This document shows positions 2,114 through 37,879 of a stretch of DNA of 64,000 bases, piece by piece (within the stretch, counting starts at the first letter, position 1; every line of letters starts with the position of its first letter). The stretch lies in the NCBI GenBank assembly GCA_000004985.1, contig GG738850.1; one strand, written 5' to 3'. The position numbers and the translations under genes were made by a program. Source of the DNA: Naegleria gruberi (lineage: Eukaryota). Under the pieces are notes generated by a model. That model did not search any database and was not told the origin of the DNA. It saw only the letters and a list, made by a program, of their open reading frames with translations.

Positions 2114-4994
2114 ATGGGCTGTGGCACATTTTCCAAAAATTTGGTAGAGGACAGGCACACCCCAATAATTAGTAACAAAAAGTCATCATCAACGGCGGAT
2201 ATTCCACCAACAACAACAACAAATAATCCTTCAGAAACATCAGGTTCAGTCGATATATCGAATAGAAGAGTGTCCAAACAATCTTCAGTGAGAGCAAGTA
2301 AGGCTTCTACACTAGCCGAACAACTTTCTTCTCAGCAACAACATCAATCACACCAAGAAGAAGAATATTCTTTCGCGGACCACCAAGAAGAGGCTTATGC
2401 TTTTATTCCGTGGCCAGAAGATATAATGATCAGTCTCGCTACTAAGGGATCTAAATTTGAATTAAGAGAAGTATCACTTCTTCTACCATCGGATGAATTA
2501 AATCAAAAACCTCTTCTTAAATATGTAAAGGATAAGAGAAATAATTGTCAACAAAATATAATAGATTGCATGTATACAATCATGAGTAGGGTTCTAAACT
2601 TTGGAACCAATTTACCTTTTCCTGTAAATACTGAAAACCAATTTGATCTTGCCGTTGATTTCATTGCTAATGGCTGTCCAATTGGAAAACAACAATTTAC
2701 CTTCTTTTCTCATAAAGAAATCCTCCTACACAGAAGTGCGTTCTTCAAAGGAGAGTTATCAAAAGATAACGGAGCAGTAGATTCACTAAAAAGAACCCTT
2801 AGTAGTGCTCATGACCTTAGAAAATCGATGGTAAAGGCAGAATTCGCTGATAGAAGAAACACAGCAGGTGATCCATCACAGCTAAAACGAACGTCGAGTC
2901 ATATAACATCTCAAGGTCCTAGATCGAGTCTACCTCCAATGCCCTTACAAAAACGACCTTTTAATACAACAAGCTCTTCCAACCTCCTTCAGGGTATGGG
3001 TGATCTAAGCAAATCTGGATCTTCATCTTCGATAACAAGCGTTGAAGAGGGAGGTAATTCAGAGAAGGAAGAATTATTCTCCTCACAAGGTAGTTTATCA
3101 ACACTTTTACTAACAGAAGATTCTAGGAAAAAAGGACAACGAAAGCCAAACAACCAAAATTTAGCAGTCTCCATTTCTAAGCAAACAAAAGCAAATCTAC
3201 AGCCAAGTAGGTTAGAGGTTGCAATATCTCCTCTTGTAAAAGATCCAGAGATTTTGTTGTTAGTTTTTGAAAATATTTACTCTGGCTATTTCCGACCTGA
3301 ATACGTTCAAAAGATGAAATCTTTGGATATTGAAAGTTTAATTCAGATATTAGCACTAGGTTACCAATTTAAAGTTCATTCATTGAGAGCAGTTTCAAAA
3401 AGTTTAATCAGTCAGTTTTTGTGTACCCACAAGGATAAGTACACATCTTTGGAGGAGCTCATCAATGGAACTTGCAAGAATATAACTGTTGAGGATATTC
3501 AAAAAAACAATATGAGTATAGTTTTAGAATTGAAGAAAATTTTCATGGACTCTAAGAGTAAGTAATTAATCTAGAGAATTTCTAACATGCATTTTAATAG
3601 AATCATTACAAGAAAATTTCATTTCTCTATCACAAGAAAAAAGAACATTCCTTAAGGATCTAGATTTTATGTTTGTACATAGTAATATGAAGAAGAACCA
3701 TATGGACTTCAGTGACATGAAGTTAACAATACAGGTTGAAGAAAAAAAGGAAGAAGAGGAAAAAGAAGATGAATCCCCCAAGAGGTCGTCGTCTTTCAGG
3801 GATACTTATGAAGAAGATGTTCAACCACTAATAAGTCAAAGAAAGAAGAGGACGAGCAAACTTCAGGACAGTGTCGATAAGAGTCAAACTAAGAAAATAT
3901 TTATTCACAACTTTATACTGAAATCAAGAACAGATATTACAAATCCTGAAATATTTAATCTATACAGCACAAATGTTGATGTTGTGAAGACTTTTATTCA
4001 TTACCTGTATACAGATACTATACACAGTGATACATACAATGTGAGTAAGAAGAAGATAATACCTCTTGCTGCTTTGTTCAAGATTGATAGACTGAAATAT
4101 GAATGTTTGGCTCATGCTATTTTCAATTTATCGGATGAAAACATTCTCAGGAAGTTTAAGAAAGCTCAAGATGCTAAGGAGACTGTTCTTGCCCAAGCAA
4201 TTTTCTACACAATGTCACACATGTATCCTAAACTAGTCCAAAAGAACTATGAGGAAGGAACGCCAGAATATAATATTCTCTTCTCAATAGATGAAAAGCT
4301 TAGGCATTTATATCAGAGAATGAGTGGGCAATTCCTTATTAGAAGAAGAATATTTACAGAAAGTAGGTTGGCGGAGATAATACCGAGAGCTGATGTTTCT
4401 AAACTTTCTCCTTCTCAAAAATCTCCAAACCACAAGATTAATGTTCAAATATGTGGCCTTCACGGCTCTGGTCTTAGTACCTTCGTAAATCAAGCCAAAC
4501 CTCTCATCTCTGAACTTCATTCATTTGAAGGAGTTGACAATATTGAACTCAATATTTCTTCCATGTACATATCAGACAGACCATTTACTGCAAATTCTTT
4601 AAAGTCAACAGACGGTGTAATTTTTATATTTTCCATTGATTCAGTAGATTCCTACCAAACAATGAGAGCTAAGTATGACGACTTTAGATTCTATTCCAAA
4701 GTTCCAGCTGTAATAATAGGAAACAAATGCGATTTGATACTTTGTAATTTTGAAACAGAGGACAAGATTGTTGATTCAGACAGAATAGTGAAAGAAGTAA
4801 CTGAAGATATGGCTTGCCCATATCTTGAAATGTCTTCTAAAAATTCAAGTGATGTTAAAAGATCGCTTGAGGAATGCATAAGAGAAGTGTTGTTTTATAG
4901 ACATATCACTTCAAAGATACCAAGTCATTTCTTAAATACTATTGCTAGGGATCAACAAGGATTGGAATCATCAAGTAACATTTCAGAGGAATAA
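2114..4994 (+). CDS. BTB/POZ-domain protein with C-terminal degenerate Ras-like (pseudo)GTPase domain; N-terminal MGCG myristoylation motif; 2 exons (2114-3557, 3601-4994; intron 3558-3600)
   Basis: ORFs 2114..3565 and 3669..4994 are joined in frame by a 43-nt intron (GTAAGT ... TTCTAAC ... AG). Removing it gives ...FMDSKS-K-SLQENF... with no stop. BTB-like segments FTFFSHKEILLHRSAFFKGEL and TFIHYLYTDTI...LFKIDRLKYECL. The C-terminal domain has G4 NKCD and G5 SSK motifs, but the P-loop is GLHGSGLST (no Lys) and DxxG is missing. Confidence 0.55.
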
Positions 4995-5049
4995 TAAATA
5001 TCAAATATTCCATTACGCTTTACAATTGCTTTTAGAAACATGAAAAAAA

Positions 5050-6643
5050 ATGTATCCAAATAGAATGCTGGGGTTTACTTTCCCTAATTTTCCTCTCTTT
5101 CCACCAAGTAAAAATACAACACCACAACGGAATGATTTCAACGATTTATCAATTCTATGTGTTGCAAAAGAAGAACAGAAATCAATAACTGGTACGATCG
5201 ATGATTCGTCTTCTTCCTGTTCCGATCGCATCACAAAGAAACAAACAACAAAAAGAAAGAGATTATTTTGCAAGGAAAGTTACATTACATGTCAAGTAGG
5301 TTTTAAAGAAGATAGTTTCTAATCTAGATTCGGAATAGAGCAACTCTCAATTATATTCAACAATACAAGTTGTGGAGGAGGAAAATATTCTAATTCAACT
5401 GAACAAAATTCTTGATGCCTCCAATGACGAGCAATATTTTGGAATAACAATACTAGGAAACAAATATAATGTTAAAAAGACATCACATTTATACAGATTA
5501 AGATCCAAATTGGAGGTGAGGAGAAGGAAAAGATTAATAGGAGACTCTTTGGAGTTGTTTGATCTTGATCATATTTTACAACAAGTATCACTTCATTCAC
5601 AAAATAATCATTTCAAGCATCACGTTGTGAATAGCGATAGTATTCCTTATGTATTAAAATCTAAAATTCCAGTGATTGATAATTTTTCAAAATCAGAGAA
5701 TGAAATCAAGAAGGAATCAAAACCAGTTCCAATTCTTCCCAAGAAAATACTCCCTAAACCTATTGTAAATCAAAAGCCATCCCCAAAAAAAGGAAATACT
5801 CAAACTCAACAATCACTAGGACTGCCATTTATTGGTGGATATAATAATATCTCATTGCATTCTCCACTCATGTTTTTAACAACATCAAGAGAACTTCCAA
5901 TTACTTCACAAGTTATGCAACCACCCCCAACAAATATTCCTTTCAAAAACACATTTAATACGGACATTCAAATTACAACTCAAGCTTCTTCAAACAATGA
6001 AAAGTCAAAGAGACAAAAGATTGAAACAATAATTCCATTCAGTCAAAAATTACTAGGTTCAACAAAAATTACTGATATACTTTCGACGCATGATATTAGC
6101 TCATGTAATCTTGTAAAGTTATTCAAGGATATCACAAAACACAAGCAGAACATTATTTCTAACATACAATTGTGTAGAATCAAACCAACATTGTTGAAAC
6201 AAATTAATTCGCTCCTACAAAGATGTTTTTGGCCCAACATTGATGTAGAGAAATATCTCGAGCAACCAGATAGAACTATTGTAGCCATGTACAATCATTT
6301 GGTTGTTGGATTCGGAGTTGTGACAAGTGAAGGATATATTCATTACTTGGTTGTTATGCCACAGTTTAGAAATTATGGAATAGGTTCATTACTAATTGAA
6401 CAATTATTGAAATGCAACAGATCTTCTGAATTCACAATTCATATTCCACTGGAAGACAAGAAAACTATTTCATTTATGAAGAAAAGGTTTGGATTTAATT
6501 CTAAAGCTGTACATTGTGATTTCTTTAAAAGTTTGGTAGAATCTCCCAATAATAATATTTCTCTAACACAATATCAAACTAATATTACAGATTTCTTTAA
6601 AGAGAAATCTAGTGATGCATTATTAATGGTACGATCTAATTAA
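5050..6643 (+). CDS. GNAT-family N-acetyltransferase-domain protein (C-terminal acetyl-CoA binding fold); 2 exons (5050-5295, 5339-6643)
   Basis: Real ATG at 5050. A 43-nt intron, 5296-5338 (GTAGGT ... TTCTAATC ... AG), joins frame 1 to frame 2 with no stop. C-terminal GNAT motif region VVGFGVV...YIHYLVVMPQFRNYGIGSLLIEQLL. Start codon and exon 1 are less certain. Confidence 0.5.
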
Positions 6644-6644
6644 A

Positions 6645-7007
6645 TTATGGTGTAGTTTTTTGATGTTTTTCAATATTATTTACAATATATTTAATATCAT
6701 TGTTGATGTGGTTGGCCCAATTTTCAACATCTCCCAATTCCTTTACACATTGATTTAACTGTTGGAAAGTTTGAATCCATTGTGTTGTTTGTTTGTTGAA
6801 TTTTTCTACTTGGGCATGAAGATGTTTGGCTTCATTTTCGATCATTTGTTGATTTTGAAAAACTTTGATGACATCACTATTTGTTTGATCGATCAATTCA
6901 TGACTGACCGATTGCAGACTATCCTTGGCTTTGTGCCTCCTCTTGTCATTTTCCTCTCGGACCTTTTGTTGGCGTTGATTGTGTTCCTTGATGAGATGTG
7001 ATAACAT
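6645..7007 (-). CDS. BLOC1S1: BLOC-1 (biogenesis of lysosome-related organelles complex 1) subunit 1 / GCN5L1 homolog, 119 aa
   Basis: Colinear similarity to BLOS1 over the whole length: MLSxLxKEH...KRR...NQ...E.K.L..Q...F.KQT.QWI...KE.GDVENWA. Single exon. Confidence 0.85.
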   Translation of the reverse strand: MLSHLIKEHNQRQQKVREENDKRRHKAKDSLQSVSHELIDQTNSDVIKVFQNQQMIENEAKHLHAQVEKFNKQTTQWIQTFQQLNQCVKELGDVENWANHINNDIKYIVNNIEKHQKTTP

Positions 7008-7101
7008 TTTTTAATATTTTAAATAAAATCTTTTCGGAATAAAACAACACTACGAATAATTAAACAAAAAATTATTGTGAATGAAAATAATTTAGTTTAA
7101 T

Positions 7102-9500
7102 TTACACATCTGGGATTGTTTGATACAAGGCATCTATTTCGTTTTTGAAAACTTCTTTCAACTTTGGTCGGATAATCTTCATGGTTGGTGTTGTAACTCC
7201 GTATTGTTCAAATTCCTTTGGCAAAAGTTTAAGGCCACGAATAATTTCAAAACCTTTAAGCTTGGCTTGCTTGGCGACTGCGACAATATCAGCAAGTACT
7301 GCCTTAACAATATCTGGATCTTCACACAACTCTTCAATCTTATCAGCCAATTGTTCCTTACCATTATCTTTGGCATATTGTTGCAAAACTGAAATATTAG
7401 CAACAGCAAAACCTATAACACAGCTCTTGAATGAATCTCCATAAACCCAAATGCCAGTAATAAACTTAGATTGACTTAATTTTTGTTCAATATTTTCAGC
7501 AGCAATATATTCACCTTGACTCAATTTGAAAATATTCTTCTTTCTGTCAATAATTGAAATTGTACCATTTTCATTTTCCTTTCCAATGTCACCTGTATGG
7601 AACCATCCTTCAGCATCCCAAGCTTCCTTAGTCTTTTCTTCATCCTTATAATATCCCATTGAGACTGATGGACCACGTACACAAATTTCACCAGACTTAT
7701 TTAGTTCCATACTATAGTTCATTTCAGGCACATCATCCAATTTAACTTCAACTGATGGGACAACACAACCAATATGACTTTCAGAATAGTCATAAGGAAG
7801 TTGAATCAATGCAGCAGCACATGTTTCCTGAAAATTAGTTAGATTAAACAACATTCACAAAAACTTACAGTAAGACCATAACCTTGGACCAAACTACATC
7901 CGAAAATGACTCTCATGTATTGTTGAACTTCAGGACGGATTGGTGCACCACCTGAAAGACAAAATCTGATACGTCCACCAAAGTTCTTTCTGATAACACC
8001 CAAAACAACATCTGAGATTGGAGTAGATTTACCAGAGAGCATACCTTCTTCCTTAGATTTAATGGCCTTACTAATGGCCCATTGCTTTAATTTACCTTCC
8101 TTTGAGATCTTTTCTTTAATACCATCATATAATTTATCAAGAACTCTTGGTACAGCAGGGAAAGCAGTTGGTTTCAAAGCAATCAAATCATCCTTCAAAT
8201 TCTTAATATTACCTTCCCAGAAACCAATACTAGCACCTGCTTGCAAAAAGACAATTTCAACCATACGCTCCAAAATGTGTGCAAGTGGTAAATATGAAAC
8301 AACTTTCAAAAAATGTATCAATTCCAAAATCTACTATACTTACCACAATCATTTTCATTCAAATCAATAATATTGTGGGCAATACCAGCACTAGCAGCAA
8401 TAAAGTTCAAATGGGTAATGACAACACCCTTTGGCATACCAGTGGTTCCTGATGTGTAATTCAAACAAGCAATACTTTGAGGAGTTGGTGGAACATCTTC
8501 AATTGGGTTTTGTTTACCGAGTTCCATAACTTCATTTAAGGTGTATGACTTGATGTTAATCTTTTCCAAAGTTGATTTTTGTTCTTCAGTGATAGCATCA
8601 AAACAGATGACTGATTTAAGGTATTCAGCCTTTGGTGCCAATTTGATGACACTACCAAGGGTTTCTCCAGAACAACAAACTGAAACAACTTCACCATGAT
8701 TCATAATGAAATTTGATGATTCTTCTCCGAGAGTGTCATAGAGAGCAAGACTGACAAGAGATTGCTTATTGCAAGCCTCAACTGAAATTTGCCATTCTCT
8801 TCTATTCTTACTGTAAATAGCAATATGTTGGTTTGGGGAAATACCAATATGTCTCAAACCACAAGCAAGATTTCTGGACATATCATCAACTTCTTTAAAT
8901 GTAATGAATTCATATTCCATTAATAATTTAGATGAATCTGTTGGGTCTCTCATTCTTCTACCCAAGCAAGGTCTATCTGCGAATTTTTCAACACACTTTT
9001 TGAATGAATCATACAATGTGGAAATGTCCTCATATTTCTTAATAATCAAGGCATCTTGGTGGCCATTCTTTCTCTTGATACGAGGATCAGATCCACCAGA
9101 GACAGTTTGATTAGCTACTGGAGGATATGATTTAGATGAAGATGTAGTTGTTTTAATTCCCTTCAATTCCGGAACAAGGAATAAAGAAGCATCGGTCTTT
9201 GGTTCACTCTTTGGAACAGCCTCTACTGGTGGTTCCTCTTCCTTTGGTGGGGTTGTAATTTCTTCAACAAAATTATTAATATCCTTGTTTTCTTGATCTT
9301 TTTTTCTTTTAACCTTTTTCAATTATTAACAATAAAAACTCACCTTCAACTGTTGAAATATTTTCCTCTGTTTTCAAAGTTTCTGTGGTTGCCACTTCTT
9401 CAGTAGTAGTGGTACTACTTTCAATCTTTTCTTCTTGTTGCTTTTGTTCTTGTTCCTCCGTAACAGCAAGGGAATCGGCAAATGCTGAAAAATCACTCAT
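7102..9500 (-). CDS. Long-chain-fatty-acid--CoA ligase (ACSL / yeast Faa-like), 4 exons: 9500-9344, 9297-8344, 8302-7869, 7827-7102
   Basis: AMP-binding motif YTSGTTGMPKGV, SYLPLAHILER and GYGLTE motifs, C-terminal ACSL signature GWFHTGDIG...IDRKKNIFKLSQGEYIA. Introns 9343-9298 (GTGAGT, 46 nt), 8343-8303 (GTAAGT, 41 nt) and 7868-7828 (GTAAGT ... CTAAC ... CAG, 41 nt); phases verified. Exon 1 is an acidic, Thr-rich N-terminal extension starting at ATG 9500. Confidence 0.88.
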
Positions 9501-10084
9501 TTTTTTTTGATTTTAATGTTTGGTTGGGCAGGGGTTGGTGTGCCATTCAAAAGATTTGCTTCGGATTAATGCTCAAACAGCACACTCCACTTCTTGTGTT
9601 GTGGAGGATTAAGAGAGTCACATTAAAGAATCTTTAACAACTGTGTATATCCTGCAAAAAAATAAAATTTAGTAAATGAGGTGGATATTTTGAAGGTTCA
9701 ATGGTTGTAGGTTAGGAAAATTTTGCTTGTTTACAAAGAGTTGGAACTTGAGTGTTCTGCATATTGAGGTAAATGGTTGTATAAACTATTCAAATTATCA
9801 TTGTGACTATTGAGTCGAATTAAGGTGAATGTACCATTCGAGGGATTTCATATTTGAGATAATAAGGACAATATTGAGCGGCAATTTGTTGGCTTTTGGT
9901 TATTTTTTCTACGATCTATTGGTGCGACGTCGATTTTTTGTCCTTCGCACAAATGATTCACTTAAACAAGACATAAGTATTTATTGTAAAGTATTATCTT
10001 TGCTTGAATAATCTACAGTTTATTAATCACACTAGAATTGAATCCAATTCTTAGTTGGAGGTATGGTCAATCAAGTTATACAAT

Positions 10085-11091
10085 TTACCAACAACATCCA
10101 CTACCTCCTTCACTTTCGTTTGGTTCACTAGTTGAAATATTTACATTATCAGTTGGCTTATTTCTGACTGGTTCAGTACTTTCGAGAAGATTAGTTGTGT
10201 TGAGTATTTGATAGACAACTTCCTCAAATGCCTTATCAACATTTTCTTTTGTTTTGGCTGATGTTTCAATATAGACCATATTATTGGATTTGGCAAAGTT
10301 TTGAGCGTCTTGGAGTGAAACTTTTCTTTCTTCCTTCAAATCAATCTTGTTTCCAATCAATAATTTTACACATTCCTCAAATGTTGAATATAAATCACAT
10401 TCCTTAAGCCAATTCTTAATATTATTAAATGTTTCCTCTCTAGTAACATCATAAACAAGAATTATTCCATGAGCATTTCCTAAATATTTTGATTAAAATA
10501 TAAATCTCAAAATACATACTATAATAACTTGATGTAAGAGTTCCTTAAATTTTGTTAGAATTGATCAGTGAATTTTGGAAGCAAACTTACTAAATCTCTC
10601 TTGACCTAATTCAATTCTTTAGAGAATTCTGTTTCTTATTTATACACTTACCTGCAGTATCAAATATCTTTATCAATTATTTAGAAAAATTCAAATCTAT
10701 TATTTTACCTACAGTCAATTTTACTTTCTTCCTATTTACATTCATAAATTTAACCTTGCTATTTATAAAATCGTCATCATCATATTAAATCCAAATTCAA
10801 TAATTATTCATTAAAAACATACAAATCCACACCAATTGTTGGCGACATTTGTTCTTTAAACTCATCCTCAGTAAATTGTGTAATAATACTACTCTATCGG
10901 AATTAATTATCTTCATCAATCTTTAAAAAAACAAACCTTTCCTGTGGCACTATCACCAACAAGCTATTAAATCCCGAACCGAACCAAACCAAAATAATCG
11001 ATTCATCATCATCATCGTCGTTGCAAATACTCTAATAAATTGGAAAACTCACCACAAGTTTGAAATTATGATCAAAAGCCTTTGAAGTCAT
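10085..11091 (-). CDS. Rab-family small GTPase, at least 8 exons including 15-27 nt micro-exons; C-terminal double-Cys prenylation motif
   Basis: Exons reconstructed by hand: MTSKAFDHNFKLV | LVGDSATGK | SSIITQFTEDEFKEQMSPTIGVDF | KVKFMNVNRKKVKLT | IFDTAG | GQERF | RTLTSSYY | RNAHGIILVYDVT...IGNKIDL...ETSAKT...GCCW. All Rab G1-G5 motifs are present, with canonical GT...AG junctions. Confidence 0.7.
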
Positions 11092-11240
11092 TTTTTTATT
11101 TTTAGATTTCTATTAAGAAACACGTTTGCAGTTTTTGTTTGAAAGTTCTTCCCAGTGTCCAAACAATCAATTGAATAATATTGAAAAGAAATTGAAGAAT
11201 TGAATCGATAGCAATGGTTTATTTACAAAATTTAAAAAAA

Positions 11241-12311
11241 TCAATTCAAATTGCAACCAATTGCCTTGTTTGTTTGCACCTTAATTGAATGTAAAATTGG
11301 AGTTAATTTGGCAGTTAACTTGGATGGAACCTTTCCATTGGCCTTTTTTGATTCATCCATCAATAATACCAAGTCAACTGGAATTGCAACTATTGGAATG
11401 GCACTTTTAATCATCAATCCTGTTAAACTCATAATACCTGTGTGGCCATTAGTCAATCCATCAGATTTATCCAAATCTTGATGCTTGTGGCCTGTCAGAG
11501 ATTCAACAAATTGAAGAACGTTGACATTTCTATTACCAATTTTCATAACTCTACTATCAATGTATGGATCAGTCAACCTTTGTTCATAAATCTTTCTAAT
11601 CATTGCATTTACTGCTTGAGTATCCCTTTGTAAGAGTTCTTGAATGGACTTGGCTGATTTCTTGGCATGTTTCCATTCAGCAATTGATGCAGCAACTGTT
11701 GCTGTTGTTCCCACACCAACACAACCAATACCAGCACCTGAGGCAATTAATGAAACACCAAAAGTGAAAGGAGCAGCTACGATACCACCAAGAATCAAGG
11801 AAGCTCCAACAATATTGGTTTTTGTACCTTTCACTTTGGTCTTTGCTGTACTTTGTTGTTTCTTTTCTAATGATTGGATTAAATTGTCCAGCATTTTAAT
11901 GATTTCCAATCGTTGGACAAGCCACTCATTTGCAGATTGTTCAATGACAGCAAATCCACAATTTGGATTATCAAAATTGGTACTTTCAAATGTTGGGGTT
12001 TGAGGAAGAATTACATTGGTCTGGAAATTTGTTTGTTGACCACCTTTTTCATAGCTACTATTACTGGTTGTGGATTGAATTGGTTTAAAGTTATTGGTTA
12101 GTTGTAATGGTTGGGGAGTTATTGGTTGTTGTACAAATTGAGGATTAGAAGTGATAACTGGAAAATATTGAGCGTTTGGTTGTGGATACATGTATTGAGG
12201 AGGATTAGGTGGGTAAAGTTGATATTCTGGTGGTTGATAATTCACTCCAGGTTCTGTAATGTTTGGTTGAGTAGAGAAATGTGGATATTGAGGAGAAACT
12301 TGTTGATGCAT
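11241..12311 (-). CDS. Hypothetical membrane-hairpin protein with N-terminal P/Q/Y-rich region containing PPxY motifs (PPEY, PPQY)
   Basis: Long ORF. The N-terminus is a low-complexity Q/P/Y region with PY motifs. The centre has a glycine-zipper hydrophobic hairpin, IVGASLILGGIVAAPFTFGVSLIASGAGIGCVGVG, reminiscent of ApoL-like or pore-forming helical hairpins. No confident family assignment. Confidence 0.35.
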   Translation of the reverse strand: MHQQVSPQYPHFSTQPNITEPGVNYQPPEYQLYPPNPPQYMYPQPNAQYFPVITSNPQFVQQPITPQPLQLTNNFKPIQSTTSNSSYEKGGQQTNFQTNVILPQTPTFESTNFDNPNCGFAVIEQSANEWLVQRLEIIKMLDNLIQSLEKKQQSTAKTKVKGTKTNIVGASLILGGIVAAPFTFGVSLIASGAGIGCVGVGTTATVAASIAEWKHAKKSAKSIQELLQRDTQAVNAMIRKIYEQRLTDPYIDSRVMKIGNRNVNVLQFVESLTGHKHQDLDKSDGLTNGHTGIMSLTGLMIKSAIPIVAIPVDLVLLMDESKKANGKVPSKLTAKLTPILHSIKVQTNKAIGCNLN

Positions 12312-12603
12312 TTTGTTTAAATTGTATTGAATAGAAAATAGATCATGAGTTTCTGATTTATTCTTTTCCTCAATTCCTTGTTTTGTTTCGAATTGAGGTA
12401 CACCAATGTCAAATCTATAATTCGAAACCCGACTTCAATTTAGAAGGTTGACTCTCGATTTCAAGGAGAAATAAATTTGAGCGCAAAACAACGACAGCCG
12501 ATATCTCTTTCTAAAACTGCGAACTTCAAATTGTCCACATTTGACTTGCAAGAATCAAATATTGTTTCATCAATGAATGCATGATCATTGCAATTCAGTT
12601 TTA

Positions 12604-13425
12604 TCACAAAATGTTAACAATTTCATATTCAATGCAATTATTTTCTTGTTTTATTTTGTTCATTGTTGAACTAATTGATTTGATATTATGTACATTTGAT
12701 TTTCTTTCTTTACTACCACTAATTATGTCAATAGTTTCAAATTCAGATAATAAACCATGGTAGTTATTTATCTTATCAGTGATTGATTCTTGTTTGATGC
12801 TTTCCACAGTGAATGTTGATTCGTCTTGTTCCGATTCTTCTTCTTGTTCTTCAGAACATTCAGGGAAGCATTCATCAAAGATAGATGATGAAATTGAAAC
12901 ACAACTCAATGGAGTTTCTTCATCATCATCTTCATAGGAATAGACTGAGTAGACATCGGATGAATTATCTTCATCAGATTCTTCGCATTCATCGTATTGT
13001 TCATAAGTAGTAGAACAATCACTATTGTTGTTATCAATCTTTCTTAAACTATCAATGAGCAATTCTCTTCTCATATATTCAGAGTCGAATGAATCACCAA
13101 GATCATTCTTCCAAGACATGATGATATCATCAACTCTTTCAATTTCTTCTTCCATATACCAGAGATCCATTTCTAAGTTGTTTGTTATTAGGAAAGTCCA
13201 AAATTTTCTATGTATATTTGATGATTTTGAACTAGTGTTCGAATATTCTTCTTCATGCAAAAGCCTTGTTATGCTATTTGAGTACAAGTAGACTTGATGT
13301 TGTCTCTTTTTTTTTGATTTGTATCGTTGCTTGAATTTGCAGTGAAACATTTTAAACCTACGCTCTGTTGCATCAATAGCGCGGACGAATGAAATTGTTG
13401 AACGTGCTTTGATGAGCTGCTTCAA
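12604..13425 (-). CDS. Hypothetical acidic (D/E/S-rich) protein
   Basis: 273-aa ORF with ATG at 13425. Strongly acidic C-terminal half and no recognisable domain. May continue in a downstream exon. Confidence 0.3.
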   Translation of the reverse strand: MKQLIKARSTISFVRAIDATERRFKMFHCKFKQRYKSKKKRQHQVYLYSNSITRLLHEEEYSNTSSKSSNIHRKFWTFLITNNLEMDLWYMEEEIERVDDIIMSWKNDLGDSFDSEYMRRELLIDSLRKIDNNNSDCSTTYEQYDECEESDEDNSSDVYSVYSYEDDDEETPLSCVSISSSIFDECFPECSEEQEEESEQDESTFTVESIKQESITDKINNYHGLLSEFETIDIISGSKERKSNVHNIKSISSTMNKIKQENNCIEYEIVNIL

Positions 13426-14029
13426 GTCACATCATCAAACCAAGAGCGCAATTTTCTTTGTTCCTTCCGCACTGTATTTTACCTCGTGAGGAAGCGTTGA
13501 TGGCTCACTTGCTACGTGTTTGCTGAGGTGGATGAAACGTTTGAAAAAACACGATCACGTTCTATTAGAGGTCAAATTGATTGTGCTTGCGCAGCAGTAA
13601 AGGACTTTCTCGTTGGATTCTTAGTTGCATTGGCGATGTTATCTTGGTATGGAAAACGTACGATCATGTCTGAGAATCTCAAATTGATAATCGTTTTGAT
13701 ATGATTGAGGTTAAAGTGTAATAATAGTTTGTAAAATGATCCACCTATTTTGATTAGATGAACTAAGAATCAGTTCAATCAAATTGAATATTGTAGATTT
13801 TCAAATCATAAACAGATGGCAACTTTTGATTGAGCATTTTGATTCTGAAATTAAATCACTTCTTTGTTGAAATTTCCAGCTTGTGATTTATTTTCCAATC
13901 TCCAATTTTTTTGAGTTTGGACAAAGATACTCATTGGAAGGTCAATATTCGAAACTCATCTAATGATACAGAAATTCAAAACGGAATAATTCAAATTGTT
14001 GACTATCTTATTACAATTATTTAAAAAAA

Positions 14030-14883
14030 TGTCGCATGCACCACAAGAAGAAACACTTGTGAACACAAGCAGGAAGGCTACAAATTTTCTCTTCCTTACA
14101 GATTACTTGATTGGAGGAGCTTCTCGAGCCATCGGAAGAACATTAACAGCACCAATTGATCGATTCATGATTCTCCTTCATCACCCAGAAAAACCCAAGT
14201 TTCCGCAAGCTTGTTTCTTGTTTTGGAGAGGAAATTTACTCAACATGATCAAATCATTCTTTCCAAATACTGTGGTTTTTAATTTTGCCATCAAGGATTT
14301 GATAAAGAGGCAGAATTATTTACCATTTCAAGCAGTTGATCAGAGAGGATATGGATTTGTGGTGAATCAGTTTGTGAGTGGTGGTTTGGCAGGTGCTTGT
14401 TGTGAATTTGTGAGATTCCCTTTTGATAATATTATGAAATTTAGGGTGGGTCAATTGGGTAGTGGAATGGAAAAGTATTTCGGATTGTTTAAAGGGGCTG
14501 GTATTTCAGTAATGAGCGCAATGGTTTATCGTTCGTTATATTTTGGATTAAATGATTCATTGAGAGAAGTGAATACTTACAGGAACGATTTGGGAGTGAA
14601 AGGAGTCATATCTAAATATGGGATAGCTCAATTAGCATCAGCAAGTGCTTGGATTATGAACAGTCCAATTAGCACCATACATAGAAGAATGATCATGCAA
14701 CAACAATATTCCCCCAATCAATGGCATTATAATTCCTCAATAGATTGTTTCAAAAAAATACTACGAAACGAAGGAATTTCCTCCTTCTTTAGAGGCTTGA
14801 GATTTTCGAACACTATTGGGCCTGCAGTTATTTTGACTCTCTATGATCAAGCCCATTGTTACTTATTTGAACAGGAGAAGTAG
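14030..14883 (+). CDS. Mitochondrial carrier family protein (divergent ADP/ATP-carrier-like)
   Basis: Three-fold repeat with carrier signatures: GGASRAIGRTLTAPIDRFMILLH (Px[DE]xx[KR] motif), GGLAGACCEFVRFPFDNI, and the SAWIMNSPISTIHRRMIMQ repeat. The first real ATG is at 14030 (MSHAPQEE...). Single exon. Confidence 0.65.
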
Positions 14884-15301
14884 TCCATGTTATTGTCTAG
14901 TAAAGGTTGTCTTCCTGATTATACCAAAAAAGTCCACAATAAGGTGAAATGTATTGAGGAGTTAAGGTACAGTTCGAAGAGTTTGTTCAACTTGAAGGAT
15001 TAGTAAACAATTCTAGGATTTGCCATGTTGAGTAAGTGTCCAAAGAATTCCAGCCAGAGTTGTATTATTATCTAGTTTTTGTGTCAAACCTATAGTTCCA
15101 TTTCCATAGCTAGGTTCTACATCAGGTACAAGTACTCCAATAACTGAACTTCAAAATTGCTGAATACTGTTAACGAAATTTAGTTAAATTGTTACTATAA
15201 TCAGATTTAATCTGGATTGTCTCTGATTATGTAGTTTTTGAAAAGAAGACAAGTTATTGAACTTTCAGAAAGACTGGTTTAAATAAACCAGTCCAATAAA
15301 A

Positions 15302-16282
15302 ATGCCAAGAACACTTTTCTCTGCACTTCCACACGAAACACTTCAACACATATTATCTTTTGGAGTTTGCAATCTATCTTCTTGCAAAAGAGAGGAACTT
15401 TATTCATGTATTCGATTTGTTTCCAATTTTCAATCTTTAAACAAGCAACTTTCTTCCGAAATGCAACGCTATTTTAATGAATTTTGGTGGCTAGTAGTAA
15501 AGAAAACAGTTGGATATAATTTATTATTAGAAACTGAGTATAATCAATTAAAAGAGAAAATGATTGAAATTGGAGAATTAAAAAGGAAGGCATTAATTGC
15601 TAAATATATTACAAGAAATGCTCGTACAAGATATTCAGATGTGAGATTGTTAGTATTTGGCTATAAAAAAGTTGGAAAATCAGCAATTACCATTCAATTC
15701 TTACAAGGAGTTTTCATATCAGAATATTCATCATTATGTGACGATTCCTATCGTAAACCATATGAAGTAGATGGCCATTACGGATTACTAGATATTCTAG
15801 ATTGCTCTACAGATGCTGATCCATCATCTGCATTGAGGGATGGACATGTAATTTCTGGAAATAGTTATTTAATTGTTTGGGATGTTTCCAATACAGAAAA
15901 CTTATTGGAAAAGACTGACACCTTGTTAAGCCAATTATTCGAACTCAGATTCATTAGGAATACTCAGGTTATGAATAACTTTCCAATTGTATTTGCTTTG
16001 AATAAGACGGATTTATTAGAGGATTCCAATGGAAGTAATGTTATAATTGAGAAATGCAGAAATGCAATTAATGAAGTTATCAGAAAGAAAGAGTTGAATA
16101 ATTGTGCAATTATTGAATGTAGTGCTAAAAAAGGAGAAAATATACATTCTTTATTTGAAGAGTGTGTGAGAAGAGAGAGACTAATGACTGACCAAGATCA
16201 TTTATCTTTATTGAAGAATGTTTTGACACATGATTCGAAATGCATTCACCGAAGCACTAACAAATCATGCACCCTTCATTGA
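15302..16282 (+). CDS. F-box-like N-terminal domain fused to a Ras-like small GTPase domain
   Basis: ATG at 15302. N-terminal LFSALPHETLQHILSFGVCNLSSC...LYSCIRFV fits the F-box consensus. GTPase motifs: G1 GYKKVGKS, G4 NKTD, G5 CSAKKG. The switch II region is atypical. Confidence 0.55.
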   Translation: MPRTLFSALPHETLQHILSFGVCNLSSCKREELYSCIRFVSNFQSLNKQLSSEMQRYFNEFWWLVVKKTVGYNLLLETEYNQLKEKMIEIGELKRKALIAKYITRNARTRYSDVRLLVFGYKKVGKSAITIQFLQGVFISEYSSLCDDSYRKPYEVDGHYGLLDILDCSTDADPSSALRDGHVISGNSYLIVWDVSNTENLLEKTDTLLSQLFELRFIRNTQVMNNFPIVFALNKTDLLEDSNGSNVIIEKCRNAINEVIRKKELNNCAIIECSAKKGENIHSLFEECVRRERLMTDQDHLSLLKNVLTHDSKCIHRSTNKSCTLH

Positions 16283-16460: not shown

Positions 16461-17921
16461 ATGTCACAACATCATCACAACAATACTAGACCCAATTTAT
16501 TAGAAAATATTCCTTTGGAAGTTTGGCAGAGTTGTATTTTTGAATATTGGCTCGGACCCATTCATGAAATCAATCAGTGTTTGGATAAATTGAATATTGA
16601 TGAAATTGAAAAGTTTAAAAATGTAATTTATTCAAAGATTATTGATGGATTGGATTTGATGAGTGTGCGGAGTGTTCATAAACTTTGTTATTTGGTTTCT
16701 AGGAGATTTAGAGAATTGTTTATAAAGGAAATGGACGAGTTTTGGTTGAAGGTATCGAATATGTTGGAGATGGCTGTTTATTGGAGAAGGTATGAAACTT
16801 CAAAAGGTGCTACATTAGCACAGGGTGATATTACGGCCATAGATTCTATTCCCTATGTGCAAATGCAAAAATTAATTGAGGCCACTGAAATGAATCTAAA
16901 TAGAGAATATACTGATATTATTGATCCATCCATGTGTAGAGAACACTGGCATAATTCAAATATTAAAAAAAAGAATGATGTAAATACGGAGCTGATGCAT
17001 CAGGAATTTGTAAAGAGATTTGAAAAATTAATCATCTCTCAAGAAAAATACGAAAAGATTAGAAAAGTAACTCAACTCGATAGCTATGATTTGTTTTTAC
17101 ACAAGTCATTTATAATATCATTGGACATGATTTCATATTTCGATAGTGAAAGGTCTAATTCAGGTTATTCTAGTTTTAGCACTGAGACTCAATGTCAATT
17201 ATTCAATAAGGGGCTCTTTTCCTTAAAACCTAACCCTAACTCTCTTGGATTAATTATTTCACATGCAGAAAACTCAGAGGAAGTACTTAACATTGATTCA
17301 AAATTCATAGCTATTTCAATTTCAAACTCTGAATGGGCAGAAAAGCAGTTTACAAACATTCCAAATACTGTACAATATCTATGTCTTGAATTCAATCATC
17401 ACTCCTATTCAGGGTATAAGAGCTTGATAGATAAACGCCTATTTGATGAGAATGATCCTGTATTTCCCAATGTTCGTGATCTAACCATTAGAATCGGATA
17501 TCCTGAAGATGATGACTATTTCCTCCACAATTTAGTCATTGAAAAGAATATTCTTTCTGGAATAACAAGGACGAGATTTCCAAAATTGATAAGAATTTCA
17601 ATTTGTGGCTTTGGATCAATGGAATCTCTGTTAGATTGTGAAATTTTGAGCCAATTACCTTATGTGGAAATTATTCAATTCTCTCATGGATATGATTACG
17701 AATTGACTCGTCATTGGTCAGAAAGAAAAGTTCATGAATTAGTAACAAGACATCAAGATTCATTGATTCATCATTTGGTAGTTCATGCATGTATTAGTAG
17801 AATCAATAATGATGCTGATTATGGTTCAATTAAGGAATATTACAATCTCAGTAAGCCAAAGTTTGTGGCTTCCATTTCTCATTCCTCATTCAATGAATAT
17901 TACGAAAATTGCTTCGAATAA
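16461..17921 (+). CDS. F-box domain protein, hypothetical
   Basis: ATG at 16461. N-terminal LENIPLEVWQSCIFEYW...LDKL matches the F-box pattern. The rest has no assignable domain. Confidence 0.45.
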   Translation: MSQHHHNNTRPNLLENIPLEVWQSCIFEYWLGPIHEINQCLDKLNIDEIEKFKNVIYSKIIDGLDLMSVRSVHKLCYLVSRRFRELFIKEMDEFWLKVSNMLEMAVYWRRYETSKGATLAQGDITAIDSIPYVQMQKLIEATEMNLNREYTDIIDPSMCREHWHNSNIKKKNDVNTELMHQEFVKRFEKLIISQEKYEKIRKVTQLDSYDLFLHKSFIISLDMISYFDSERSNSGYSSFSTETQCQLFNKGLFSLKPNPNSLGLIISHAENSEEVLNIDSKFIAISISNSEWAEKQFTNIPNTVQYLCLEFNHHSYSGYKSLIDKRLFDENDPVFPNVRDLTIRIGYPEDDDYFLHNLVIEKNILSGITRTRFPKLIRISICGFGSMESLLDCEILSQLPYVEIIQFSHGYDYELTRHWSERKVHELVTRHQDSLIHHLVVHACISRINNDADYGSIKEYYNLSKPKFVASISHSSFNEYYENCFE

Positions 17922-27040: not shown

Positions 27041-28729
27041 ATGGGAACCCCAGATTGGGGTAATGATTTAACACTCAACTATGACACTTGCAATATTATG
27101 TCACTCACACAAAAACAATCAAAAAAAATGAGTAAACGAAATAGACAAGATTTGGAAAATCAATTAATTAATTATTCGGAGGAAAATAATATGGACGAGA
27201 AAGCAAAAAAGGTTTCAATGCAACGACAAGAAATATTTTCAGATGATGTTTGTTTTGAAATAATTTGCATGCTCGATGATTCGTGGTTTATTTTGAATAA
27301 TTGTTCATTGATTTCAAAACAATTCTTTAATGTGATCAAGGAACGTTCAAAACTTGTTATTCAATTTAATCAAAAATTTACAGAAACAAGAATTGAATTA
27401 TTCATGAAAAGTCAATTTATGAATAGTATTGTTCATCTTAAATTTTATAGAAGCTCGCTTGACTCTATAGAACAAGTCAAATTAATAAGTGAAATGAAAC
27501 AATTAAAATTACTTGATATTCGTGGAATTCAAATAGGAGATGAAGGAGCCAAATTTATAAGTGAAATGAAACAATTGAGATCACTTAGTATTTATAACAA
27601 TCAAATTGGTGTAGCAGGAGTCAAATCAATAAGTGAAATGAAACAATTAACATCACTTGCAATTTGTAACAATCGAATTGGTGATGAAGGAGTCAAATTT
27701 ATAAGTGAAATGAAACAATTAACGTCACTTACTATATGTTACAATCAAATTGGTGTTGAAGGAGTAAAATCCATAATTGAAATGAACCAATTAAAATCAC
27801 TTAATATATCTTACAATGAAATTGGAGATGAAGGCGCGAAATCAATATGTGAAATGAAACAATTAACATCACTTAATATATGTGACAATCGAATTGGTGT
27901 AGAAGGAATCAAATCAATATGTGAAATGAAACAATTAACATTACTTAATATATCTAAGAATCAAATTGGTGATGAAGGAGTCAAATTCATAATTGAAATG
28001 AAGCAATTAACGTCACTTGACATATGTTACAATCGAATTGGTGATGAAGGAGCCAAATCCATAAGTGAAATGAAACAATTGAAATCACTTGATATTTATA
28101 ATAATCAAATTAGTGATGAAGGAGTCAAATTTATAAGTGAAATGAAACAATTAACATCACTTGATATTAGTGCAAATGAAATTGGTGTAGAAGGAACCAA
28201 ATCAATATGTGAAATGAAACAATTAACATTACTTAATATATCTAAGAATCAAATTGGTGATGAAGGAGTCAAATTCATAATTGAAATGAAGCAATTAACG
28301 TCACTTGACATATGTTACAATCGAATTGGTGATGAAGGAGCCAAATCCATAAGTGAAATGAAACAATTGAAATCACTTGATATTTATAATAATCAAATTA
28401 GTGATGAAGGAGTCAAATTTATAAGTGAAATGAAACAATTAACATCACTTGATATTAGTGCAAATGAAATTGGCGTTGAAGGAGTCAAATCAATAAGTGA
28501 AATGAAACAATTAACATCACTTAATATTAATAACAATGAAATTGGTGATGAAGGAGCCAAATTTATAAGTGAAATGAAACAATTAACATCACTTAATATA
28601 TGTTACAATCGAATTGGTGTTGAAGGAGTCAAATTAATAGGTGAAATGAAACAATTGAAATCACTTAATATTAATTACCAAAAGACGAAATCTAAGGATT
28701 TGGTATGGATTACAAATGAGACTGCTTAA
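27041..28729 (+). CDS. F-box / RNI-like leucine-rich-repeat protein (about 18 tandem 24-aa LRRs)
   Basis: F-box region IFSDDVCFEIICMLDDSWFILNNCSLISKQFFNVI, followed by 72-nt (24-aa) repeats of consensus SEMKQLTSLDIxxNxIGDEGxKxI. The first ATG, at 27041, may not be the true start. Confidence 0.7.
   Translation: MGTPDWGNDLTLNYDTCNIMSLTQKQSKKMSKRNRQDLENQLINYSEENNMDEKAKKVSMQRQEIFSDDVCFEIICMLDDSWFILNNCSLISKQFFNVIKERSKLVIQFNQKFTETRIELFMKSQFMNSIVHLKFYRSSLDSIEQVKLISEMKQLKLLDIRGIQIGDEGAKFISEMKQLRSLSIYNNQIGVAGVKSISEMKQLTSLAICNNRIGDEGVKFISEMKQLTSLTICYNQIGVEGVKSIIEMNQLKSLNISYNEIGDEGAKSICEMKQLTSLNICDNRIGVEGIKSICEMKQLTLLNISKNQIGDEGVKFIIEMKQLTSLDICYNRIGDEGAKSISEMKQLKSLDIYNNQISDEGVKFISEMKQLTSLDISANEIGVEGTKSICEMKQLTLLNISKNQIGDEGVKFIIEMKQLTSLDICYNRIGDEGAKSISEMKQLKSLDIYNNQISDEGVKFISEMKQLTSLDISANEIGVEGVKSISEMKQLTSLNINNNEIGDEGAKFISEMKQLTSLNICYNRIGVEGVKLIGEMKQLKSLNINYQKTKSKDLVWITNETA
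27890..28470 (+). repeat. Near-perfect 288-bp tandem duplication (4 LRR units, 96 codons) inside the F-box/LRR gene
   Basis: The sequence at about 27913-28200 is repeated identically at 28201-28488 (offset exactly 288 bp). Identity decays only at the flanks. Confidence 0.85.
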
Positions 28730-37874: not shown

Positions 37875-37879
37875 TTTTT

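What the first reader, a model, noticed from the sequence alone, without database searches (positions are those of the whole stretch)
2114..16282. E3-adaptor domains (BTB, F-box) fused to Ras-like or pseudo-GTPase domains: two examples in one window
Gene 2114-4994 encodes an N-myristoylated (MGCG) BTB protein whose C-terminus is a Ras-like fold with a destroyed P-loop (GLHGSGLST, no Lys) but intact NKCD/SSK motifs. This is a reversed, pseudo-GTPase version of the RhoBTB architecture. Gene 15302-16282 fuses an F-box-like N-terminus to a Ras-like GTPase with an intact GxxxxGKS P-loop. Together with two F-box/LRR genes and another F-box gene (16461-17921), the window is enriched for cullin-RING ligase substrate adaptors. 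Some are apparently coupled to nucleotide-binding switches, suggesting a lineage-specific expansion of GTPase-regulated ubiquitin-ligase adaptors.
Basis: partly seen in the sequence, partly recalled or inferred. Interest (0 to 1): 0.6.

Follow-up and report, generated by a model that had tools for sequence, protein, structure and literature searches.

The report
Naegleria BTB–dead-Ras fusion, already catalogued
Two neighbouring genes of the amoeba Naegleria gruberi join a Ras-type GTPase domain to a possible ubiquitin-ligase adaptor domain (BTB certain, F-box doubtful), but both genes and this idea were already published in a 2021 supplement.

Summary
The window is Naegleria gruberi. Both proteins appear verbatim in Table S8 of Herman et al. 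2021 (PMC8296547). That supplement already notes "one Ras protein ... combined with the BTB domain" and proposes "GTPase-dependent ubiquitination".

**Gene 1 (2114-4994) is real.**
- The 43-nt GT..AG intron is in frame, and the residues across the junction are conserved in three orthologues.
- The protein (945 aa) starts with an invariant MGC motif.
- It has two BTB domains, not one, each split by an insert.
- A helical linker leads to a Ras fold with no P-loop Lys, no switch I and no DxxG, but an invariant NKxD.
- This pseudo-GTPase state is conserved in Naegleria, Willaertia and three more distant homologues, which carry strong BTB hits (59-64 bits).

**Gene 2 (15302-16282) is a Ras-family protein of an N. 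gruberi paralogue expansion.**
- The P-loop, NKTD and SAK motifs are intact. Thr35, Gly60 and Gln61 are replaced.
- F-box similarity is confined to the first helix (LPxEILxxILxF). Pfam scores stay below threshold, and the structure model was too poor to decide.

**Other claims.** No F-box signal was found in gene 16461-17921, and only a sub-threshold one in the two LRR genes. The window is not demonstrably enriched for ligase adaptors.

The parts
2114..3557 (+). Gene 1 exon 1 (NAEGRDRAFT_46403; corrected model XP_002681393.1*), residues 1-481 plus the first base of codon 482
   Evidence: ORF; spliced translation. It is identical to the sequence printed in Table S8 of PMC8296547.
2114..2125 (+). 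MGCG N-terminus, a candidate N-myristoylation (Gly2) and palmitoylation (Cys3) motif
   Evidence: M1, G2, C3 and G4 are invariant in the three orthologues. The distant homologues start MGCGTS and MGCSVS. Acylation itself is inferred.
2642..2767 (+). BTB1, N-terminal half (residues 177-218, ...FTFFSHKEILLHRSAFFKGEL...)
   Evidence: With the insert removed, Pfam BTB is the only hit: 17.6 bits here and 23.4/22.0 bits in the orthologues.
2768..3208 (+). Insert of 147 residues inside BTB1, rich in Ser, Thr and Pro
   Evidence: Alignment. Its removal restores the Pfam BTB match.
3209..3421 (+). BTB1, C-terminal half (residues 366-436, RLEVAISPLVKDPEILLLVFENIYSGYF...)
   Evidence: The NCBI model XP_002681393.1 wrongly splices this part out.
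3558..3600 (+). 43-nt intron (GTAAGT...TAATAG)
   Evidence: The flanking codons are conserved in the orthologues. Automatic gene calls in related species split at the same place by reading into the intron (P0010, P0012).
3601..4994 (+). Gene 1 exon 2 (residues 482-945 plus the stop codon)
3702..4124 (+). BTB2 (residues 516-656), split by a 50-residue acidic/basic insert (3741-3890)
   Evidence: Pfam BTB scores 23.7 bits with the insert removed. A profile of BTB2 plus linker hits only BTB proteins in the PDB: SPOP 3e-5, IVNS1ABP, KLHL11, KLHL22. The homologous domain in P0013-P0015 scores 59-64 bits.
4125..4430 (+). Conserved helical linker between BTB2 and the G domain (residues 657-758)
   Evidence: Conserved in the alignments. 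The KLHL22 match extends past the BTB domain into it. It is helical in the low-confidence model.
4431..4904 (+). Ras-like pseudo-GTPase domain (residues 759-916): P-loop GLHGSGLS at 4455-4478, NKCD at 4722-4733, SSK within 4827-4841
   Evidence: Pfam Ras 43.7 bits, on profile positions 65-160 only. Foldseek aligns 160-190 columns to RhoA, Rab9 and KRas, E 4e-7. Motif table.
15302..16282 (+). Gene 2 (corrected model XP_002681395.1*), 326 aa, single exon
   Evidence: Identical to the Table S8 entry, which is classed 'Ras' with no extra domain listed.
15326..15361 (+). LPHETLQHILSF: F-box-like first-helix motif
   Evidence: hhalign against nine Pfam-validated F-boxes gives probability 86%, aligning 19 columns. 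The motif alone scores 29.4, against a shuffle maximum of 17.7. Pfam F-box-like scores 13.2 bits, sub-threshold.
15407..15640 (+). Rest of the conserved N-terminal extension (...FQSLNK...YFNEFWW..., then the ELKRK helix)
   Evidence: Conserved in ten N. gruberi paralogues. On its own it has no detectable F-box similarity: score 6.7, reached by 169 of 200 shuffles.
15641..16183 (+). Ras-family G domain: GYKKVGKS (15659-15682), degenerate switch I YSSLCDDSY (15725-15751), DCSTD in place of DTAGQ (15800-15814), NKTD (16001-16012), SAK (within 16118-16129)
   Evidence: Pfam Ras 64 bits. Alignment to Ras proteins.
16268..16279 (+). C-terminal CTLH (CaaX-like box)
   Evidence: Most full-length paralogues end in CaaX boxes such as CSIM, CSLM, CICM and CSMM. 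His in the last position is atypical.
16461..17921 (+). No domain was detected and it is not shown to belong.
   Evidence: No Pfam family at E<=1. hhalign probability is 0.9% against F-box and 1.5% against the gene-2 extension.

Best explanation
The window is a stretch of the Naegleria gruberi genome. It carries two unrelated members of that organism's very large Ras superfamily, which happen to lie about 10 kb apart.

**Gene 1**
- It is a conserved two-exon gene encoding an MGC-start protein.
- The protein has two insert-split BTB domains of the SPOP/KLHL type, a helical linker, and a C-terminal Ras fold.
- The Ras fold has lost the P-loop Lys, switch I and DxxG, so it cannot work as a classical GTP switch.
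- Most likely mechanism (inferred):
  - The protein sits on a membrane through N-terminal acylation.
  - It dimerises or docks through the BTB pair, plausibly onto cullin-3.
  - It uses the dead G domain as a protein-binding or autoregulatory module, as the atypical GTPase domain does in RhoBTB.

**Gene 2**
- It belongs to an N. gruberi-specific expansion of CaaX-ended Ras paralogues that share a ~110-residue helical N-terminal extension.
- That extension begins with an F-box-like LPxEILxxILxF helix. It is probably a diverged F-box with a variable loop inserted after helix 1. This is not established.
- The G domain keeps the nucleotide-binding motifs but lacks Thr35, Gly60 and Gln61. It more likely holds nucleotide constitutively than cycles.

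**Status.** Shown here: the gene models, the domain content, the motif states and their conservation. Inferred: acylation, cullin-3 or Skp1 binding, and nucleotide behaviour.
For: **Identity**
- Both proteins appear verbatim in Table S8 of PMC8296547 as N. gruberi XP_002681393.1* (Ras, BTB) and XP_002681395.1* (Ras).
- P0165 is XP_002681393.1.

**Gene 1 model**
-.

**Gene 1 BTB domains**
-.

**Gene 1 dead G domain**
- In the eight family members aligned, the Lys is present only in P0013 and is otherwise replaced by L, V or R.
- The switch I segment is missing and there is no DxxG. NKxD is invariant.
- Fold search shows a full small-GTPase fold.

**Gene 1 N-terminus and distribution**
- The MGC start is conserved even in distant homologues.
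- The family occurs in N. fowleri, N. lovaniensis, Willaertia and three unidentified eukaryotic contigs.

**RhoBTB precedent**
- RhoBTB shows bipartite-BTB1 cullin-3 binding and autoinhibition by the GTPase domain (PMC4931677).

**Gene 2**
- The paralogue family with a conserved extension is shown.
- Six of ten members give sub-threshold hits to F-box-clan families, and no other family recurs.
- hhalign to F-boxes gives 86-94%, with 0 of 200 shuffles reaching the score.
- There is no N. fowleri 1:1 orthologue in Table S8.
Against: **Gene 1**
- No binding to cullin-3 has been tested.
- The region that carries the cullin-3 contact loop in SPOP (recalled from memory) is occupied by the 147-residue insert in BTB1. 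In BTB2 it is about 16 residues shorter than in P0013-P0015.
- Invariant NKxD, together with a conserved GxxGxGxST, argues that some nucleotide binding may persist.
- Residue 6 of the Naegleria protein is Phe rather than the Ser/Thr that N-myristoyltransferase prefers.

**Gene 2**
- All F-box scores are below the Pfam cut-offs.
- The part after the loop shows no F-box signal.
- PDB sequence hits to FBXL2, cyclin F and FBXO42 are insignificant.
- The AlphaFold model had pLDDT 53.6 and found no F-box fold.
- The curators of Table S8 did not call an F-box in this Ras subfamily.
Confidence: 0.6

Rival explanations
1. Gene 1 is not a cullin-3 adaptor. Its BTB pair serves only for oligomerisation or scaffolding at a membrane, as in many BTB proteins that never meet a cullin. 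The dead Ras fold is a structural or docking module.
For: Both BTB domains are altered at the alpha3-beta4 region: an insert in BTB1 and a shortening in BTB2. BTB scores are marginal in Naegleria. No cullin evidence of any kind was obtained.
Against: The closest solved relatives are all cullin-3 adaptors: SPOP, KLHL11, KLHL22 and IVNS1ABP. A conserved helical segment follows BTB2, where the 3-box/BACK region lies in such adaptors. RhoBTB binds cullin-3 through a BTB1 that also carries an insert.
Confidence: 0.3
2. The C-terminal domain of gene 1 is still a nucleotide-regulated switch of an unusual kind. It binds guanine nucleotide through NKxD/SAK and the glycine-rich loop despite lacking the P-loop Lys.
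For: NKxD is invariant in all eight family members. GxxGxGxST is conserved in five of the eight, and one member keeps the Lys.
Against: The P-loop Lys is replaced by Leu, Val or Arg in seven of the eight. The switch I segment is deleted and DxxG is absent in all. Pfam matches only the C-terminal half of the Ras profile.
Confidence: 0.2
3. The N-terminal extension of gene 2 and its paralogues is a lineage-specific helical domain that has nothing to do with SCF ligases. The LPxEIL similarity to F-box helix 1 is convergence or chance.
For: Only 16-19 columns carry the signal. The remainder scores at shuffle level. No Pfam threshold is passed. The fold search was negative, though on a poor model. 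Table S8 lists no extra domain for this protein.
Against: F-box-clan families are the only ones that recur among the paralogues (6 of 10). In the short-loop paralogue XP_002668120 the Pfam F-box-like match runs over profile positions 2-36. With the loop removed, hhalign spans 44 columns. It spans 31 columns against a Naegleria Rab-like F-box, at probability 66%. F-box-GTPase fusions are abundant in this genome.
Confidence: 0.4
4. One reading: the window is a local cluster of cullin-RING adaptor genes (BTB, three or four F-box genes) that reflects a linked, lineage-specific expansion.
For: Two adaptor-like GTPase fusions lie 10 kb apart. Two LRR genes have weakly F-box-like N-termini.
Against: Genes 1 and 2 are not paralogues. 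Unrelated genes lie between and around them: GNAT, GCN5L1, acyl-CoA synthetase, a Rab, ApoL-like and a mitochondrial carrier. Gene 16461-17921 shows no F-box. N. gruberi has more than 350 Ras-superfamily genes, many of them fused to F-box or BTB, so neighbours by chance are expected.
Confidence: 0.08

Closest known systems
[quoted passage not shown] 2021, PMC8296547, Table S8 and Supplementary Material 4)
   Same: It is the same gene. The published corrected model matches the spliced protein as far as the table prints it. The BTB-plus-Ras architecture and the idea of GTPase-dependent ubiquitination are stated there.
   Different: The publication lists a single 'BTB'. It does not describe the tandem split BTBs, the loss of the P-loop Lys, switch I and DxxG, the MGC start, or homologues outside Naegleria.
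RhoBTB (metazoan RhoBTB1-3, Dictyostelium RacA)
   Same: Both have tandem BTB domains with a bipartite first BTB, an atypical GTPase domain, and a helical BACK/3-box-like segment after BTB2 (PMC4931677).
   Different: The domain order is reversed (BTB-BTB-G rather than G-BTB-BTB). The G domain is classed as Ras, not Rho, by the Table S8 curators, and is more degenerate. An N-terminal MGC motif replaces the C-terminal CaaX of RhoBTB3. No specific sequence similarity to the N. gruberi RhoBTB fragment was found. N. gruberi also has true RhoBTB genes.
SPOP and BTB-Kelch (KLHL) cullin-3 substrate adaptors
   Same: They are the best solved-structure relatives of BTB2 plus linker, with E 3e-5 to 9e-3.
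   Different: The substrate-binding MATH or Kelch domain is replaced by a dead Ras fold. The BTB domains carry large inserts. Cullin-3 binding is untested.
Naegleria F-box-GTPase fusions (Rab-like, Rho, Ran, G-alpha) described in PMC8296547
   Same: Gene 2 has the same layout: an N-terminal LPxE-type helix region, a helical linker, a G domain, and CaaX in one subgroup.
   Different: Gene 2 is in the Ras family, for which no F-box was reported. Its extension does not pass any F-box threshold, whereas the Rab-like ones score 33-37 bits.
TbFRP (FYVE-F-box-GTPase of Euglenozoa, PMC3593210)
   Same: It is another discoban protein with an F-box placed upstream of a Ras-like GTPase domain.
   Different: TbFRP has a FYVE domain and a Rab18-like G domain. 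Its authors found no Naegleria orthologue.

Membership tests
BTB/POZ domain (Pfam PF00651) | Profile match above the curated cut-off (20.5 bits) | tested here: met
   The native window sequence scores 15.6 bits. With inserts removed, BTB2 scores 23.7 bits and BTB1 17.6 bits, with the orthologues at 22-25 bits. The homologous domain in P0013-P0015 scores 59-64 bits. All 16 PDB hits of the family profile are BTB domains.
Cullin-3 substrate adaptor | Cullin-3 contact loop (phi-x-E) and 3-box helices after the BTB domain | tested here: inconclusive
   A conserved helical segment follows BTB2, and KLHL22 aligns into it. The loop region is replaced by an insert in BTB1 and shortened in BTB2. Motif positions are recalled from memory and were not verified.
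Cullin-3 substrate adaptor | Physical binding to cullin-3 | not testable with these tools
   No complex prediction or experiment was available.
RhoBTB | N-terminal Rho-type GTPase domain followed by two BTB domains | tested here: not met
   The G domain is C-terminal. The curators of Table S8 class it as Ras.
RhoBTB | Tandem BTB domains, the first one bipartite | tested here: met
   The feature is defined in PMC4931677.
Ras-superfamily small GTPase (gene 1) | G-domain fold / Pfam PF00071 above 21.6 bits | tested here: met
   43.7 bits. Foldseek hits RhoA, Rab9 and KRas over 160-190 columns (model pLDDT is 50-80 in this part).
Ras-superfamily small GTPase (gene 1) | G1 GxxxxGK[ST], G2 Thr, G3 DxxG | tested here: not met
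   The P-loop is GLHGSGLS, the switch I segment is absent, and there is no DxxG. The same holds in all the aligned homologues except P0013, which keeps the Lys. This makes the domain a pseudo-GTPase.
Ras-superfamily small GTPase (gene 1) | G4 NKxD and G5 SAK | tested here: met
   NKCD is invariant as NKxD in the family. SSK, SAR or NAK occupies the G5 position.
F-box (Pfam PF00646 / PF12937), gene 2 | Profile match above the curated cut-off (20.5 / 24.3 bits) | tested here: not met
   13.2 bits on profile positions 1-15. The paralogues score 12-17 bits.
F-box, gene 2 | Profile-profile similarity over the whole ~45-residue domain | tested here: inconclusive
   Only helix 1 aligns in the native sequence (19 columns, probability 86%). 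With the loop deleted, 44 columns align at 94%. The post-loop part alone has no signal.
F-box, gene 2 | Three-helix fold | tested here: inconclusive
   The model is all-helical (H11-21, H30-47, H52-70) but pLDDT is 53.6. Foldseek found nothing at E<=1.
F-box, gene 2 | Skp1 binding | not testable with these tools
   -
Ras family GTPase (gene 2) | G1, G4 and G5 motifs and a Pfam Ras match | tested here: met
   GYKKVGKS, NKTD and SAK are present. Pfam Ras scores 64 bits.
Ras family GTPase (gene 2) | Switch I Thr35, switch II DxxG, catalytic Gln61 | tested here: not met
   YSSLCDDSY replaces YDPTIEDSY, and DCSTD replaces DTAGQ.
N-myristoylated / palmitoylated proteins (MGC class) | Met-Gly start, Cys3, small or Ser/Thr residue at position 6 | tested here: inconclusive
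   MGC is invariant. Position 6 is Phe in Naegleria and Willaertia, and Ser in P0013 and P0014. The consensus is from general knowledge.

The most novel reading that the evidence does not exclude
The BTB-BTB-dead-Ras protein represents an old family, wider than Naegleria, of membrane-anchored 'inverted RhoBTB' cullin-3 adaptors. In this family a nucleotide-dead Ras fold was recruited as the substrate-binding or autoinhibitory module. Separately, the conserved extension of the N. gruberi Ras subfamily is a cryptic F-box with a loop inserted after helix 1. That would add the Ras family to the list of G domains that Naegleria has repeatedly wired to SCF ligases.
Probability: 0.3. Interest if true: 0.5.

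Novelty: already known. Interest (0 to 1): 0.27.

Why it matters
If BTB and F-box modules really hand Ras-type domains to cullin ligases, Naegleria would show a recurrent way of linking G-protein folds to protein degradation. RhoBTB is the only well-studied example of such a link.

The additions here are modest but concrete:
- The BTB partner is a conserved pseudo-GTPase, so 'GTPase-regulated' is probably the wrong picture for it.
- The RefSeq model of the gene deletes half of a BTB domain.
- The Ras-family extension is at best a very diverged F-box.

None of this changes current understanding, because the architecture and the hypothesis are already in print.

Tried and rejected
- **AlphaFold on exon 2 of gene 1.** With a 3-sequence alignment the mean pLDDT was 42.5. 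Only the Ras part was usable, and the BTB2 part was not interpretable. The fold search returned only small GTPases.
- **AlphaFold on residues 1-113 of gene 2.** With 5 sequences the pLDDT was 53.6. Foldseek against the PDB gave no hit below E=2.7. This is uninformative rather than negative.
- **Spliced protein as input.** I worked around this with exon-wise rows.
- **Profile search with the gene-2 extension.** It found only two further N. gruberi fragments and no canonical F-box proteins.
- **PDB sequence search with that extension.** The native alignment gave no F-box hits. The loop-deleted alignment gave FBXL2, cyclin F and FBXO42 only at E 0.08-2.
- **Comparison with Naegleria Rab-like F-box extensions.** Again only helix 1 aligned, except for 31 columns with XP_002677491.
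- **Gene 1 BTB region against the N. gruberi RhoBTB fragment.** No signal.
- **Gene 16461-17921 as an F-box protein.** Rejected on present evidence.
- **LRR genes as F-box/LRR proteins.** Not supported above threshold.
- **Organisms behind the distant homologues P0013-P0015.** They could not be identified. Only the contig names are known, and no paper mentions them.

Full report
**What the window is.** The sequence is AT-rich (about 33% G+C) and eukaryotic. The spliced product of 2114-4994 and the product of 15302-16282 both appear letter for letter in Additional file 10 (Table S8) of Herman et al. 2021 (BMC Biol 19:142, PMC8296547). There they are the manually corrected Naegleria gruberi models XP_002681393.1* and XP_002681395.1*. 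The uncorrected RefSeq protein XP_002681393.1 (NAEGRDRAFT_46403, 828 aa) was also recovered.

**Gene 1, the gene model.** ORFs 2114-3565 and 3669-4994 lie on the + strand. A GTAAGT...TAATAG intron at 3558-3600 (43 nt) joins them in frame to give 945 residues. I could not test this with transcript data, but the comparative evidence is strong.
- The residues encoded on both sides of the junction, including the 22 codons upstream of the second ORF's ATG, are conserved in N. lovaniensis (945 aa, 61% identity over 99% of the length) and in Willaertia magna (876 aa).
- N. fowleri has a single 952-aa protein.
- Automatic gene calls in related assemblies break at exactly this spot by reading into the intron (P0010, P0012).
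- The RefSeq model uses the same acceptor but an upstream donor. It therefore deletes 117 conserved residues, which are the second half of BTB1.

**Gene 1, the domains.** Pfam on the native sequence gives Ras (43.7 bits, profile positions 65-160 only) and a sub-threshold BTB (15.6 bits). Reading the alignment shows two BTB-like units, each interrupted by a poorly conserved insert of 147 and 50 residues.
- When the inserts are cut out, BTB is the only meaningful family hit for both units in all three species. Scores are 17.6-25.0 bits against a cut-off of 20.5.
- An exhaustive profile search found three more distant proteins with the same layout: P0013 (775 aa), P0014 (936 aa) and the partial P0015, at E 1e-30 to 1e-41.
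- In these proteins the domain homologous to BTB2 scores 59-64 bits.
- A profile of BTB2 plus the following linker hits only BTB proteins in the PDB. SPOP, IVNS1ABP, KLHL11 and KLHL22 come first, and all are cullin-3 adaptors.

BTB is therefore established, and it is a tandem pair with a bipartite first member. That is the RhoBTB arrangement (PMC4931677), here placed upstream of the G domain rather than downstream.

**Gene 1, the Ras-like domain.** The fold search aligns 160-190 columns with RhoA, Rab9 and KRas. The model is of moderate confidence only in this part. The motif table shows:
- The P-loop Lys is replaced by Leu (window), Val (N. lovaniensis, N. fowleri, P0011, Willaertia, P0015) or Arg (P0014). 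Only P0013 keeps it.
- The switch I segment is missing.
- No DxxG is present.
- NKxD is invariant, and the SAK position is partly kept.

This is a conserved pseudo-GTPase, not a recent decay. The retained NKxD leaves open some nucleotide binding.

**Gene 1, the N-terminus.** M-G-C is invariant across the family, as in dually acylated G-alpha-i and Src-family proteins (general knowledge). Position 6 is Phe in Naegleria, which is not the preferred Ser/Thr. Acylation is a reasonable inference, not a demonstrated fact.

**Gene 2.** The 326-residue ORF matches Pfam Ras at 64 bits.
- GYKKVGKS, NKTD and SAK are intact.
- The alignment with ordinary Ras proteins shows YSSLCDDSY in place of YDPTIEDSY, and DCSTD in place of DTAGQ. 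Thr35, Gly60 and Gln61 are therefore all gone. The two closest paralogues keep Thr35 and DxxG.
- The protein ends in CTLH. Its paralogues mostly end in CaaX boxes with Met.

Table S8 lists at least a dozen N. gruberi Ras-family paralogues with the same ~110-residue N-terminal extension. None is annotated with an extra domain, and this gene has no 1:1 N. fowleri orthologue.

**Is the extension an F-box?** Evidence in favour:
- The extension starts with L-P-x-E-[IL]-x-x-x-I-L-x-[FY], nearly invariant in ten paralogues.
- Six of the ten give sub-threshold hits to F-box-clan Pfam families, and no other family recurs.
- hhalign against nine F-boxes that I first validated with Pfam gives 86% probability over 19 columns.
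- After removing the variable loop that follows helix 1, it gives 94% over 44 columns. None of 200 column shuffles comes near.
- A natural short-loop paralogue aligns to Pfam F-box-like positions 2-36.

Evidence against:
- Every score is below the curated cut-offs.
- Almost all of the signal sits in helix 1. The post-loop part alone scores at shuffle level.
- PDB sequence hits to FBXL2, cyclin F and FBXO42 are insignificant.
- The structure model was too poor to decide.

I rate 'diverged F-box' at about even odds.

**The other claims.**
- Gene 16461-17921 has no Pfam family and no profile similarity to F-boxes or to the gene 2 extension.
- The two LRR genes are inverted paralogues made of 72-nt tandem units. 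Their shared N-terminus reaches 13.5 bits on F-box-like and an hhalign probability of 1.9%.
- Other genes in the window are ribosomal protein S3a, a GNAT, GCN5L1, an acyl-CoA synthetase, a Rab, an ApoL-like protein, a mitochondrial carrier, kinases, a Sec7 GEF, peptidases and others.
- N. gruberi has more than 350 Ras-superfamily genes, many of them fused to F-box or BTB. Two of them 10 kb apart needs no special explanation.

**What was already known.** Supplementary Material 4 of PMC8296547 states three things:
- The F-box is the most frequent extra domain on Naegleria GTPases (Rab, Rho, Ran, G-alpha).
[quoted passage not shown] Gene 1 is that one Ras protein. Not in that text are the tandem split BTBs, the conserved pseudo-GTPase state, the MGC start, homologues beyond Naegleria, and a possible F-box remnant in the Ras subfamily.

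**Mechanism, with its limits.** For gene 1, I think the most likely picture is a membrane-tethered BTB dimer or adaptor whose dead Ras fold binds a partner or folds back on the BTB region, as proposed for RhoBTB. Only the parts list is shown; every interaction is inferred. For gene 2, the G domain probably holds nucleotide but cannot sense the gamma-phosphate in the usual way. Whether its extension recruits Skp1 is open.

**Verdict.** The core is already catalogued, the F-box half is weak, and the claim of clustering is unsupported. Interest is low to moderate.

Noticed in passing
window 27041-28729 (+) and 51704-53323 (-): Two inverted paralogous LRR_6 genes lie 23 kb apart. Each is built of 16-18 tandem 72-nt (24-residue) units that are 80-88% identical at the DNA level. 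The arms are 86% complementary over 1.2 kb, and the N-termini are nearly identical (EIFSDDVCFEIICMLDD...). Such homogeneous repeats suggest recent duplication or ongoing homogenisation.
   Followed up: partly
window 2114-4994: The RefSeq model XP_002681393.1 (828 aa) splices from after ...KANLQP to KSLQENF. This removes 117 conserved residues that form the second half of BTB1. The orthologues and the published corrected model keep them.
   Followed up: yes
window 11241-12311 (-): A 356-residue ORF with a Gln/Pro-rich N-terminus matches the Apolipoprotein L family (PF05461, E 6e-8, above cut-off). This is an unexpected family for an amoeboflagellate.
   Followed up: no
window 10085-10360 (-): This is the last exon of a third small GTPase. 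It matches Pfam Ras positions 109-161 and ends in ...GCCW, which looks Rab-like. Its upstream exons were not assembled here.
   Followed up: no
window 37777-39423 (+): A 548-residue ORF carries an RNase H domain (E 6e-11) and no other detected domain. It could be a cellular RNase H1 or a remnant of a mobile element.
   Followed up: no
window 18147-20807 (+): Three consecutive or overlapping ORFs lie on one strand (18147-19073, 19025-20008, 20040-20807). The first two have no detectable family and the last is a partial protein-kinase domain. Together they are probably one intron-containing receptor-kinase-like gene.
   Followed up: no
window 30381-32681 (-): A single 766-residue ORF combines a JmjC/cupin hydroxylase domain with a Kelch propeller.
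   Followed up: no
L001 2001-4328; L002 893-3703; L003 507-1772: These are distant homologues of gene 1 with strong BTB hits and degenerate P-loops (GDANVGKK, GTEGCGRS, GDTGVGVS). They lie on contigs of unidentified eukaryotes: JGI 3300062347, GCA_037189345.1 and GCA_016850925.1. The genes are intronless there, and G+C is 35% in L001 and 50% in L002.
   Followed up: partly
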